DNA from: Escherichia coli O157:H7
GTDB lineage: Bacteria; Pseudomonadota; Gammaproteobacteria; Enterobacterales; Enterobacteriaceae
Strand: one strand, 5' to 3'
Assembly (NCBI RefSeq): GCF_013167455.1
Contig: NZ_CP038328.1
DNA length: 64,000 bases
This document shows positions 19,310-22,300 of this stretch, one piece after another. The position numbers are program-made. Within the stretch, counting starts at the first letter, position 1. Every line of letters starts with the position of its first letter.

Positions 19310-22300
19310 AGTCGTGCACCGACGCCTGATGCGACGCGGGCGCGTCATATCACGCCAAAACCGTAGGCCGCCTCCGCCATGTTAAATGTTAACTGGCATT
19401 GGCAATTTACTCTTCCCGGCCTTTACTCATACTTTTTTGGTCTTCATCCGGATAGTGTTTTTTTAGATATTCCAGGACGTTTTTATTGACCTTGTGTTGC
19501 GTATACACCCACCCTTTCCAGTAATCAGGCTGGTCCAGGTAAACTTCTGGCGGAATGGTGAAATCAGAAAGCGTTAACCATTCGGCTAACAGATCGGGGT
19601 TTCGTTTCTGTATCAACTGCAACAGCATAATCAGCGACATGGCAGAGGCAGGAGCCGTACTATCGCCGCTTAAATACTTCCACACTGTCGACCGGTTCGA
19701 ACGAAAAAGGATCGGTAGCAATGCCCGGTCCAGATTCATTTCATTAAAAATCTTCTCAAATTCATTCATTTAAATTTTCCTGCCTGGCGTAAACCTCTTA
19801 AAAATTGAGATTTATCAAAGAAACGCATTTTAGCACACATCAGGAACCGCTTCACGTTTAGTCCAGAAACAGAATTTATTTCGCTTATCAAAACAAGTCT
19901 TTACTCTTTTTTACATTGAAAGAGCACGAAATGATTTCCTTTTTTATTTATATAAGAAACCATTTTTGTTTCTTATTGATGGTGTTTACGCTTACAACAG
20001 ACAAAAATGCGCTTTACATCACACAAATGGCGGCGTAGATTTCGATTAAATTGCAACGCAGTTTATTTCTTAAAACAATATTATTTGTTTCTTATAGAAA
20101 CATTAGTACGACTTATTTTGAACAAGAGAAAATGAATGAAAACTGTAAACGTAGCTTTACTGGCACTCATAATTTCAGCAACATCCAGCCCTGTTGTTTT
20201 AGCTGGTGATACCATTGAAGCGGCGGCAACAGAGCTTTCAGCCATTAACTCTGGCATGTCGCAATCGGAGATTGAGCAGAAGATTACCCGCTTTTTAGAA
20301 CGCACAGACAACAGCCCCGCTGCGTATACCTATTTGACTGAACATCACTACATCCCTTCTGAAACACCTGATACCACTCAGACTCCCACTGTCCAGACAG
20401 ATCCTGACGCAGGACAAAAAACCGTTGCCGCTACAGGTGATGTACAGACAACTGCCCGTTATCAGAGCATGATCAACGCCCGACAGTCTGCGGTAACTGA
20501 CGCCCAGCAAACGCAAATTACAGAGCAACAGGCGCAGATCGTAGCCACACAAAAAACGCTCGCCGCGACTGGAGATACGCAAAATACCGCGCATTATCAG
20601 GAAATGATTAATGCCAGACTGGCGGCTCAAAATGAGGCTAATCAGCGCACCGCCACTGAACAAGGGCAGAAAATGAATGCGCTGACAACCGATGTGGCAG
20701 TACAACAGCAAAATGAAAGGACTCAATACGATAAACAAATGCAAAGTCTGGCGCAGGAGTCTGCCCAGGCACATGAACAAATTGACAGCCTGTCACAAGA
20801 CGTAACCCAAACGCACCAACAGTTAACCAACACCCAAAAACGGGTTGCAGATAACAGCCAGCAAATTAACACGCTCAATAACCATTTCAGTTCGCTAAAA
20901 AACGAAGTTGATGACAATCGTAAAGAAGCCAATGCGGGAACTGCATCTGCCATCGCTATCGCCTCACAACCACAGGTTAAAACCGGTGACGTGATGATGG
21001 TGTCAGCGGGAGCGGGAACCTTCAACGGTGAATCTGCGGTGTCTGTCGGAACATCATTTAATGCCGGAACGCATACGGTACTTAAAGCCGGTATTTCTGC
21101 GGATACACAATCTGATTTCGGCGCAGGTGTCGGCGTGGGATATTCGTTCTAATATTTCAATCCTCAATATAAATAAGAGCAAGGAAGCTTGCCGGGTTCA
21201 CCTCTTCATTAATTTGTACATTATTTAAGGTTAACAATGATGAATAGCTCCATTAAATCGTTTTCCCTGCTGGCGGTTATATTACTGGCTGGCTGTAGTT
21301 CACCCACTTCCCGCATCGCAGATTGCCAGGCGCAGGGCGTCAGTCATGACACCTGTTACCTCGCAGAACAGCAGCGTCAGGCGGCTATTTTAAGTGCATC
21401 CGAGGCACAGGCATTTAAAAATGCAGAAGCCGCACAACACGCCCAGGCGGCAAAGAAAGCCATTTATAAAGGATTTGGCATGACCTTTAGAATGAGCAGT
21501 AAAAACTTTGCTTATCTCAATGATTCATTATGTGCAATTGATGAAGACAATAAAGATGCCACTGTTTATCAGTCAGGTCTATATAACGTCATTGTTTATC
21601 ATCACACAGGAAAAGTCGCCTTAATGAAAGAAGGCCAGTTTGTGGGTTATTTAAAATGAAGGAGCAAAGGAAAATACCCCTGACGCATATTATGATTATC
21701 GGTGCGTTTATTTTTGCCTTCTTGCAAGTAGTATTATTAGCCTCCCTGGTTCACGCTGTGAATGTTAACAACGAAATCCAGGAAGGCTTATTTCAGTCGG
21801 GGCGCATTATGGTAGAAAGTTTGCAGCATATTCTTTCGGTGCAAACGGGGATTCACTGATTTTCACCCCGCCCGATGATGACAGCAGCCGGAGAGATTTT
21901 CGATAATCGGGCAGTCGGCGCTGTCATCACCGGGGCAGGCATTCGCCAGCGCCAGTAGCTGGTTGCGCATAGATTGCAGTTCTTCGATATGCCGTTCAAT
22001 CTCCGCCACCTTCTCCAGCGTGCGACGTTTGACGTCGGCACTGTGACGCTGCGGGTCGTTAAACAGATTCACCAGCTCGCCGCTCTCTTCCAGGTTAAAG
22101 CCCACCTGGCGCGCCTGGCGCAGTAAGGTCAATTCGTTGAGATGCTGCTGCGTGTAGGTTCGATAACCATTTTCGCTGCGCATCGGCGGCGTCACCAGCC
22201 CCTTCTCTTCATAGAAGCGAATGGCTTTGCTGGTCAGGCCGGTAATTTTTGCTACATCGCTAATGTTCATCGTTCGCGCAACGCCTCCTGTGCTTTGTTA

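What the first reader, a model, noticed from the sequence alone, without database searches (positions are those of the whole stretch)
20415..20625. Internal duplication within the adhesin-like gene stalk
Two ~18-aa segments (ATGDVQTTARYQSMINAR and ATGDTQNTAHYQEMINAR) recur 46 codons apart, suggesting a duplicated stalk module. This is typical of modular trimeric autotransporter stalks and could vary in copy number between strains.
Basis: seen in the sequence. Interest (0 to 1): 0.3.

Follow-up and report, generated by a model that had tools for sequence, protein, structure and literature searches.

The report
Duplicated stalk module in surface-fibre gene
The two look-alike segments are a real, old tandem duplication of a 45-residue module in the stalk of a small E. 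coli O157:H7 outer-membrane fibre protein; relatives carry one to three copies, which is ordinary for this protein class, though the same gene has been published as a transcription factor called GmrA.

Summary
In the 338-aa ORF at 20136..21152 (+), QKTVAATGDVQTTARYQSMINAR (aa 94-116) recurs as QKTLAATGDTQNTAHYQEMINAR (aa 139-161). The offset is 45 codons, not 46. The ungapped self-match scores 132, against at most 69-76 in shuffles.

The protein looks like a small, head-less trimeric autotransporter: signal peptide, helical stalk and a YadA_anchor domain (Pfam E 1e-11).

The duplication is old. The units are 57% identical in DNA, and copy 1 and copy 2 are orthologous across alleles.

Among homologues the core occurs once, twice or three times. 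Start-to-start spacing is 38, 45 or 52 residues, always 3 mod 7. The third copies are recent tandem re-duplications (88-94% nt identity).

The O157-type allele itself showed no length change: about 1030 complete genomes carry it and all 43 sampled rows are the same length.

AlphaFold2 breaks the helix exactly at the G-D of both cores, with low confidence. I read the core as a conserved register-shifting break in a coiled-coil stalk. That part is inference.

In passing: primer mapping shows this gene is z0639/gmrA of O-island 29, published as a direct transcriptional activator of fliA. That is hard to square with a secreted, membrane-anchored architecture.

The parts
20136..21152 (+). Whole gene, 338 aa plus stop. 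RefSeq calls it 'YadA family autotransporter adhesin' (WP_000859816.1). It is z0639/gmrA of O-island 29.
   Evidence: ORF. It is 100% identical to O157:H7 genomes and annotated. The published gmrA deletion arms map to 20097-20135 and 21153-21190, and the cloning primers match the first and last codons.
20136..20204 (+). Signal-peptide-like N-terminus (aa 1-23, MKTVNVALLALIISATSSPVVLA|GD).
   Evidence: Read directly from the sequence: a basic start, a hydrophobic core and a V-L-A motif. It is conserved as ...SAFA|GD in homologues. pLDDT is below 50 in the AF2 model. No signal-peptide predictor was available.
20205..20345 (+). Small N-terminal helical domain (aa 24-70), conserved across alleles. 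No known head-domain family matches it.
   Evidence: AF2 predicts helices 27-34, 43-56 and 61-69 at pLDDT about 75-80. The region is conserved in alignment A3. No Pfam hit.
20346..20414 (+). Pro/Thr-rich disordered linker (aa 71-93). Relative to longer alleles, about 120-135 aa of stalk are missing at or just after this point.
   Evidence: AF2 shows it non-helical with pLDDT 31-37. Alignment A3 shows the gap relative to the 457-579-aa alleles.
20415..20549 (+). Repeat unit 1 (aa 94-138). The core QKTVAATGDVQTTARYQSMINAR occupies nt 20415-20483, followed by a polar 22-aa linker.
   Evidence: AF2 places a helix break at aa 98-102 (AATGD).
20550..20684 (+). Repeat unit 2 (aa 139-183). The core QKTLAATGDTQNTAHYQEMINAR occupies nt 20550-20618, followed by diverged stalk.
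   Evidence: AF2 places a helix break at aa 146-147 (GD) in the full-length model and at G146-N150 in the pseudo-trimer construct.
20685..20963 (+). C-terminal heptad coiled-coil stalk leading into the anchor (aa 184-276).
   Evidence: Self-match diagonals at offsets 14, 21 and 28. Hydrophobic power at period 3.5 for aa 200-276 was reached by none of 2000 shuffles. AF2 predicts a continuous helix 148-276 with pLDDT up to 95.
20970..21149 (+). YadA-like membrane anchor (aa 279-338), four beta-strands per chain.
   Evidence: Pfam PF03895, E 1.1e-11, 45 bits against a 22.7 cut-off. PDB sequence matches to AtaA, Hia and YadA anchors. AF2 strands 287-296, 299-309, 314-323 and 328-336.

Best explanation
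The region is an old in-frame tandem duplication of a stalk module in a small, head-less trimeric-autotransporter-type surface protein.

Each module has two parts. The first is a strongly conserved 23-aa core, [QR]K[TI][VLI]-[AS]-A-[TLMI]-G-D-x4-A-[RH]-Y-Q-x-M-[IV]-[ND]-A-[RGK]. The second is a polar Q/A/T-rich helical spacer whose length changes only in steps of 7 residues.

Shown here:
- The duplication is real and predates the divergence of the Escherichia alleles.
- The core is under purifying selection, while the spacer and the synonymous sites have drifted.
- Module number (1-3) and spacer length (38, 45 or 52 aa periods) differ between alleles.
- Extra copies arise by recent whole-unit tandem duplication of unit 1.

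Inferred:
- Every observed period equals 3 mod 7, and both AF2 models break the helix at the invariant G-D. So each core is most likely a fixed structural break in the trimeric coiled coil. G would cap one helix, D would cap the next, and the register would shift by a net +3 residues. This would explain why the core is conserved while the flanking heptads are free to vary.
- Adding or removing whole modules or whole heptads then changes fibre length without disturbing the register that leads into the membrane anchor.
- In the O157-type allele the two units share no exact DNA run longer than 8 nt. There is no substrate for unequal recombination, which fits the lack of length change seen in that allele.
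For: Repeat significance: (score 132 against a shuffle max of 69-76).

TAA architecture.

Orthology of copies and conservation of the core: (11 invariant columns of 39).

Copy number and spacing: one search gives periods of 38, 45 or 52 in all but three singleton metagenome or read-assembly sequences. One search shows three copies in P0086, P0031 and P0030. Searches show that distant relatives P0139 and P0141 have one core and P0137 has two. One search gives the P0137 spacing as 52.

Alignment A3 shows gaps of exactly 7 and 14 aa in the spacer between the cores. The 52-period alleles show as +21 nt in 384 E. coli genomes.

DNA identity of units: the old pairs are 53-57% identical with exact runs of 8 nt or less. 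The extra units are 88% and 94% identical with exact runs of 41-43 nt, in two alleles with different periods, so the duplications were independent.

Helix breaks at G-D: both cores in the full-length AF2 model and all three chains of a GCN4-clamped pseudo-trimer.

No length change in the O157-type allele.
Against: - The structural role of the core is not demonstrated. pLDDT is below 50 around the cores in both AF2 runs. The runs were a monomer and an artificial single-chain trimer, each with a shallow alignment (7 or 25 rows).
- Hydrophobic 3.5-residue periodicity is not detectable in aa 103-145. So coiled-coil character between the cores rests on the 7-residue indel pattern alone.
- The core matches the published beta-layer consensus at only 3 of 6 positions, and the net shift of +3 is not the +2 or +6 of beta-layers.
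- Three singleton metagenome or read-assembly sequences show periods of 39, 41 and 43.
- Trimerisation, surface exposure and adhesion were not tested. Deleting the island did not alter adherence to HeLa or Caco-2 cells, and the gene is published as a DNA-binding regulator.
Confidence: 0.8

Rival explanations
1. The two cores are conserved because they are ligand- or partner-binding sites displayed twice on the fibre. They would be functional motifs rather than structural breaks, and module number would tune avidity rather than length.
For: Conservation covers residues that need not be core positions (R/H-Y-Q-x-M, K at position 2) and persists in relatives only 36-47% identical overall. The module is restricted to a very narrow family: 11 hits among 1.84 billion representatives, two of them false. 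That pattern is more typical of a specific function than of a generic structural element.
Against: No ligand is known, and deleting the island did not change adherence to HeLa or Caco-2 cells. The strict 3-mod-7 spacing and the helix break at the invariant G-D point to a structural constraint. The two readings do not exclude each other.
Confidence: 0.15
2. The protein is what the literature says: GmrA, a cytoplasmic transcriptional activator that binds the fliA promoter. The repeated segments would then be part of a DNA-binding or dimerisation coiled coil, not an adhesin stalk.
For: Yang et al. 2018 report EMSA and ChIP-qPCR binding to the fliA promoter, loss of flagella in the gmrA deletion mutant, and complementation (PMC5826968). 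Reviews repeat this. Primer mapping shows their gmrA is exactly this ORF.
Against: The ORF has a signal-peptide-like N-terminus and a C-terminal YadA_anchor above Pfam's curated threshold, with four predicted beta-strands. No DNA-binding family appears in Pfam or NCBIfam. Only far-sub-threshold SMC and other coiled-coil matches were found, for example TIGR02168 at 22 bits against a cut-off of 567. I suspect, but could not check, that these are the source of the 'putative DNA-binding domain'. The recombinant protein carried an N-terminal His tag on the full precursor, so it was not the mature form.
Confidence: 0.04
3. The similarity is a by-product of low-complexity Q/A/T-rich coiled-coil composition, not a duplication.
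For: The stalk is compositionally biased. TRF finds no DNA repeat.
Against: Shuffling within the stalk alone never exceeds a score of 76, against the observed 132. The same core recurs with invariant residues in every homologue. Recent re-duplications of the same unit are seen at 88-94% nt identity.
Confidence: 0.01

Closest known systems
z0639 / GmrA of O-island 29, E. coli O157:H7 EDL933 (Yang et al. 2018, PMC5826968)
   Same: It is the same gene. The published deletion arms flank 20136..21152, and the cloning primers match its first and last codons.
   Different: The paper treats it as a hypothetical protein with a putative DNA-binding domain that acts as a direct activator of fliA. It mentions no signal peptide, YadA anchor or internal repeat. 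In the held literature only two papers contain both 'GmrA' and 'autotransporter'; in the GmrA passages I read in those two reviews, GmrA is described only as a regulator.
Trimeric autotransporter adhesins (type Vc secretion): YadA, Hia, AtaA
   Same: C-terminal YadA_anchor with four strands per chain, preceded by a heptad coiled coil, and an N-terminal signal peptide. A modular stalk whose segments are gained and lost between strains.
   Different: No recognisable head, neck or other catalogued TAA passenger domain; only a ~45-aa helical N-domain and a P/T linker. It is very short (338 aa). No adhesion phenotype has been found so far.
Beta-layers and stammers in trimeric coiled coils (Hartmann et al. 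2016, eLife, PMC4786415; OMP100, Tcar0761)
   Same: A short conserved motif interrupting the heptads of a TAA-type stalk. It starts with aliphatic-A and ends in D ([VLI]-[AS]-A-x-G-D versus [aliphatic]-A-T-K-[polar]-[DE]), and the helix restarts after the acidic residue.
   Different: Only 3 of 6 consensus positions match. The net register change per module is +3, like a stammer or decad, not +2 or +6. No structure exists, and the AF2 confidence at the motif is low.
Saa, the STEC autoagglutinating adhesin with strain-variable numbers of a repeat unit (recalled from memory: Paton et al. 2001. The existence of saa variants is cited in PMC3769853)
   Same: An E. coli TAA whose alleles differ in the number of a ~37-aa stalk repeat. 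This is the same kind of variation as seen here.
   Different: Not tested here. The plasmid TAA hits I fetched were a different, IS-truncated YadA-like protein, not Saa. They align only to aa 162-338, outside the repeat.

Membership tests
Trimeric autotransporter (type Vc), YadA-anchor family | C-terminal YadA-like membrane anchor domain (PF03895) | tested here: met
   45 bits, E 1.1e-11, gathering cut-off 22.7, aa 279-338 covering the full 60-position profile. phmmer matches to AtaA, Hia and YadA anchor structures.
Trimeric autotransporter (type Vc), YadA-anchor family | Four beta-strands per protomer, preceded by a helix that would run through the barrel | tested here: met
   The AF2 model has strands 287-296, 299-309, 314-323 and 328-336 after helix 148-276, with pLDDT 80-95 over aa 200-310.
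Trimeric autotransporter (type Vc), YadA-anchor family | N-terminal Sec signal peptide | tested here: met
   By inspection only: MKTVNVALLALIISATSSPVVLA|GD, conserved in all full-length homologues. No predictor was available.
Trimeric autotransporter (type Vc), YadA-anchor family | Coiled-coil stalk in the passenger | tested here: met
   Period 3.50 is the strongest hydrophobic periodicity in aa 200-276, reached by none of 2000 shuffles. Self-similarity at offsets 14, 21 and 28. The signal is not significant for aa 103-145.
Trimeric autotransporter (type Vc), YadA-anchor family | Obligate homotrimer displayed on the cell surface | not testable with these tools
   Needs SDS-PAGE of heat-stable trimers, protease shaving or immunofluorescence.
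Trimeric autotransporter adhesin (functional sense) | Adhesive head domain and an adhesion, autoaggregation or biofilm phenotype | tested here: not met
   No head, neck or other passenger-domain family was found in Pfam. The published OI-29 deletion mutant adheres normally to HeLa and Caco-2 cells. Other substrates are untested.
Beta-layer (alpha/beta coiled coil) | Motif [aliphatic]-A-T-K-[polar]-[DE] inserted as +2 or +6 residues into heptads, with three residues in beta conformation | tested here: inconclusive
   The core has [VLI]-[AS]-A-[TLMI]-G-D, matching 3 of 6 positions. The module period equals 3 mod 7, not 2 or 6. AF2 shows a 2-5 residue non-helical break at low confidence.
Transcription factor (published GmrA assignment) | Recognisable DNA-binding domain and cytoplasmic location | tested here: not met
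   No DNA-binding family passes or approaches its threshold in Pfam or NCBIfam. A secretion signal and a membrane anchor are present. The published EMSA and ChIP data cannot be re-evaluated here.

The most novel reading that the evidence does not exclude
The 23-aa G-D...[RH]-Y-Q-x-M core would be a so far undescribed kind of connector for trimeric coiled coils. It would be a fixed break that shifts the heptad register by +3 and has its own conserved layer of Tyr/Met/Arg residues. It would be confined to a small clade of head-less enterobacterial autotransporters carried on a mobile four-gene cassette. On this reading, the protein published as the transcription factor GmrA is really an outer-membrane fibre whose length is set by module number, and its effect on flagella is indirect.
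Probability: 0.3. Interest if true: 0.45.

Novelty: new member of a known kind. Interest (0 to 1): 0.3.

Why it matters
As a duplication it matters little. Repeated, copy-variable stalk segments are standard in trimeric autotransporters.

Three things give it some value:
- The clean rule that spacing is always 3 mod 7, together with an invariant G-D break, makes this small protein a convenient natural test case for how coiled-coil fibres tolerate and fix register shifts.
- The module profile (alignment A1) gives a simple marker for typing alleles of a gene present in about a quarter of complete E. coli genomes.
- Recognising the gene as a YadA-anchor protein calls for a re-examination of its published role as the DNA-binding regulator GmrA.

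Tried and rejected
- Tandem Repeats Finder and exact-seed DNA repeat search. TRF saw nothing in the gene. The repeat finder recovered only the first 19 nt of each unit, because the units are 57% identical.
- My first gapped Smith-Waterman self-alignment chained the true repeat into a near-diagonal artefact (score 180). I replaced it with ungapped diagonal scoring plus shuffles.
- Pseudo-trimer AF2 run: GCN4-pII, then aa 128-215, then GCN4-pII, three times, joined by 70-aa Gly/Ser linkers (alignment A2). Mean pLDDT was 63.6, pTM 0.37, and below 50 at the motif. It is usable only as weak support for a break at G-D. I could not inspect chain packing or confirm a parallel trimer.
- Manual heptad assignment through the core gave several incompatible registers (nonad plus skip, hexad plus stutter, or stammer). 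I do not commit to one.
- Hydrophobic periodicity in the inter-core spacer is not significant.
- I tested whether the downstream lipoprotein (z0638) is a SadB-type TAA helper. It has no sequence match to any PDB chain at E below 0.5 and no family hit above threshold.
- Direct comparison with Saa failed. The E. coli plasmid hits were a different, IS66-truncated YadA-like protein.
- PDB sequence search found no solved relative of the repeat region; only the anchor matches.
- z0640 shows only a weak MqsA-antitoxin/HTH-like Pfam hit (E 0.088, below threshold) and nothing in NCBIfam or PDB.

Full report
**Where the window comes from and what the gene is**

The window is E. coli O157:H7; the gene is 100% identical to many O157:H7 chromosomes. 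The finding lies in the + strand ORF 20136..21152 (338 aa). RefSeq annotates it as 'YadA family autotransporter adhesin' WP_000859816.1, between ybbJ and cueR.

Pfam finds one family above threshold: YadA_anchor at aa 279-338 (45 bits, cut-off 22.7, E 1.1e-11). All other Pfam and NCBIfam hits are far-sub-threshold coiled-coil look-alikes such as SMC, Rad50 and ATG16. The PDB sequence search matches only the anchors of AtaA, Hia and YadA.

**The observation**

- aa 99-116 and aa 144-161, with 14 of 18 residues identical.
- The offset is 45 codons (135 nt), not 46.
- The conserved core is longer than reported, 23 aa: QKTVAATGDVQTTARYQSMINAR against QKTLAATGDTQNTAHYQEMINAR, starting at nt 20415 and 20550.
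- Weak similarity runs on, so the two 45-aa units abut (25 of 45 identical).

The best ungapped off-diagonal segment is at offset 45 and scores 132. In 500 shuffles the maximum was 69 for the whole protein and 76 for the biased stalk alone (z about 17 and 11.5). So this is neither chance nor composition.

At DNA level the units are 57% identical: the core is 70% identical, and only 10 of 23 third codon positions match. This indicates an old duplication held at the protein level, and it is invisible to TRF.

**Architecture**

An AF2 model built on a 25-sequence family alignment (mean pLDDT 70.7) gives the following:
- A signal-peptide-like N-terminus.
- Three short helices (27-69, pLDDT about 75-80).
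- A disordered P/T-rich linker (70-89).
- Helix 90-97, a break at 98-102 (AATGD), helix 103-145, a break at 146-147 (GD), and one long helix 148-276.
- Four beta-strands (287-336).

Hydrophobic periodicity of 3.50 residues is very strong in aa 200-276 (none of 2000 shuffles reach it) but absent in aa 103-145. Secondary self-match diagonals fall at 14, 21 and 28.

The protein therefore meets the sequence-level criteria of a type Vc trimeric autotransporter. It lacks any catalogued head or neck domain.

**Homologues**

A search of 5.8 billion proteins returned 316 relatives. All of the 120 listed that carry a source name are Escherichia, and they range from 247 to 579 aa. Counting the YQxM[IV][NDS]A signature gave these results:
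- Two copies in nearly all sequences.
- Three copies in an E. ruysiae allele (480 aa; periods 52, 52), in a 497-aa allele (periods 38, 38), and in a 577-aa allele that carries a larger 121-aa segmental duplication.

An O145:NM allele (436 aa) has lost 20 aa of core 1, leaving one complete core.

Start-to-start periods fall into three classes, 38, 45 and 52, which differ by whole heptads and all equal 3 mod 7. Three singleton metagenome or read-assembly sequences are exceptions (39, 41, 43). Alignment A3 shows the spacer gaps are exactly 7 and 14 residues.

Copy 1 carries ARYQSM and copy 2 carries AHYQEM in almost every allele. The duplication therefore predates allele divergence, and the copies evolve as orthologues. 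E. ruysiae, whose last copy is also the ARYQSM type, is the exception.

**How copies are gained**

In the two 3-copy alleles for which I fetched DNA, the extra unit is a near-identical tandem copy of unit 1. It is 88% nt identical with a 41-nt exact run in the 38-aa-period allele, and 94% identical with a 43-nt exact run in the 52-aa-period allele. The old pair is 53-57% identical everywhere, with exact runs of at most 8-17 nt. These are two independent, recent whole-unit duplications.

In the O157-type allele the units share no run longer than 8 nt. No length change was seen there:
- 1414 of 5426 complete E. coli genomes carry the gene.
- About 1030 carry it at 95% identity or more, and all 43 evenly sampled rows match 381 of 381 nt contiguously.
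- 384 genomes carry the 52-period type, seen as +21 nt.
- All 15 listed members of the 1187-member 90% cluster are 338 aa.

**Distribution of the module**

A 39-column profile of the unit (A1) was searched against 1.84 billion representative proteins. It found 11 proteins at E of 1e-3 or better. Two are unrelated repeat proteins. The rest are this Escherichia family plus three more distant short YadA-anchor proteins:
- P0137, with two cores spaced 52 apart.
- P0139 and P0141, with one core each.

The module is therefore narrowly distributed and matches no Pfam family.

**What the core may do (inference)**

Identical motifs must sit in the same structural register. A period of 7n+3 therefore implies a net +3 departure from heptads in each module. 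Both AF2 runs break the helix at the invariant G-D, in the full-length monomer and in all three chains of a GCN4-clamped single-chain pseudo-trimer. Confidence at the motif is low in both (pLDDT below 50).

The motif [VLI]-[AS]-A-x-G-D resembles the beta-layer consensus [aliphatic]-A-T-K-[polar]-[DE] of Hartmann et al. 2016 at 3 of 6 positions. However, beta-layers correspond to +2 or +6, whereas +3 is the 'stammer' case described in the same paper.

I therefore commit only to 'a conserved register-shifting break in the stalk'. A role as a binding site is not excluded.

**Identity with gmrA**

A literature search on neighbouring locus tags led to Yang et al. 2018 (PMC5826968). Their O-island 29 contains z0638, z0639 (gmrA) and z0640.

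Primer mapping places the genes as follows:
- The gmrA deletion arms map to 20097-20135 and 21153-21190.
- The gmrA expression primers begin at the ATG at 20136 and end at ...GVGYSF.
- The z0638 arm abuts the lipoprotein gene 21237..21659, and the z0640 arm abuts 19407..19769(-).

So the 'transcriptional activator GmrA' is this YadA-anchor protein. The paper reports:
- A CDD-predicted DNA-binding domain.
- EMSA and ChIP-qPCR binding at the fliA promoter.
- Loss of flagella in the mutant.
- No effect of the island on adherence to HeLa or Caco-2 cells.

I find no DNA-binding family in the protein. In the GmrA passages I read in the two reviews that contain both 'GmrA' and 'autotransporter', it is described only as a regulator. 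I cannot re-evaluate the experiments. The architecture makes a direct cytoplasmic DNA-binding role unlikely and an indirect effect more plausible.

**Verdict**

The finding is an ordinary instance of modular repeat evolution in an autotransporter stalk. It has a neat heptad-phased rule, an undescribed conserved core, and an annotation conflict worth flagging.

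Noticed in passing
window 20136-21152 (with primer sites 20097-20135 and 21153-21190): This ORF is z0639/gmrA of O-island 29, published as a direct transcriptional activator of fliA with a 'putative DNA-binding domain'. 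By sequence it has a signal peptide, a coiled-coil stalk and a YadA membrane anchor, and no DNA-binding family. In the GmrA passages of the two reviews I read that contain both 'GmrA' and 'autotransporter', it is described only as a regulator.
   Followed up: yes
window 19407-21859; loci L009, L011, L007/L008, L014-L016: The autotransporter sits in a conserved four-gene cassette. A divergent gene of about 111-120 aa (z0640) has only a weak HTH-like, sub-threshold MqsA hit. It is followed by the TAA, a protein of about 140-152 aa (annotated as a lipoprotein in O157, z0638), and a small protein of about 67-69 aa. The cassette lies between ybbJ and cueR in Escherichia, between fetA and qmcA in other contigs, and next to a serine recombinase in CP082355.1. 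This suggests a mobile unit.
   Followed up: partly
L002:1795-3603, L004:2215-3654, L006:1611-3419: The RefSeq (PGAP) start codons of the longer alleles are too far downstream. The proteins are annotated as 349-386 aa without a signal peptide, but the frames stay open upstream and encode MKTVKLSLL... with the signal peptide. The true L002 product is about 590 aa and contains a second, duplicated stalk segment of about 120 aa.
   Followed up: partly
window 20346-20420; alignment A3 columns 118-464: The O157-type 338-aa allele looks like a deletion derivative. About 120-135 aa of stalk present in the 457-579-aa alleles are missing, and the P/T linker (…VQTDPDAG) joins directly onto core 1. A 345-aa protein (P0026) combines this short N-terminus with the 52-aa-period repeat region, suggesting recombination between allele types.
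   Followed up: partly
window aa 128-215 of the gene (nt 20517-20780); homologue motif I-D-S-V-Q-Y-G-E-Q-I: From a confident 'a' position before core 2 to the well-phased C-terminal heptads is 88 residues, which is 12x7+4. Longer alleles have a 9-residue I...I spacing around a conserved V-Q-Y-G-E-Q. So there may be a second, non-repeated break downstream of the repeats.
   Followed up: no
window 20062-20105: An AT-rich 22-nt unit occurs twice in tandem (77% match) in the intergenic region between the divergent z0640 and z0639 genes. It could be a regulator site or just AT-rich promoter DNA.
   Followed up: no
window 22267 onward; L001:8132-13017: Immediately beyond cueR lie a HlyD-family adaptor, a type I secretion ABC transporter and a giant BapA/SiiE-like adhesin gene. 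RefSeq annotates the adhesin gene as a pseudogene with an internal stop in the O157:H7 genome I inspected.
   Followed up: no
L005:2346-3656 (O145:NM strain FWSEC0002): This 436-aa allele differs from the 456-aa type by an in-frame 20-aa deletion (GDVKTAARYQSMINALQTAT) that removes core 1. Because 20 is 2x7+6, it does not preserve simple heptad phase. It is therefore a natural test of what the core contributes.
   Followed up: partly
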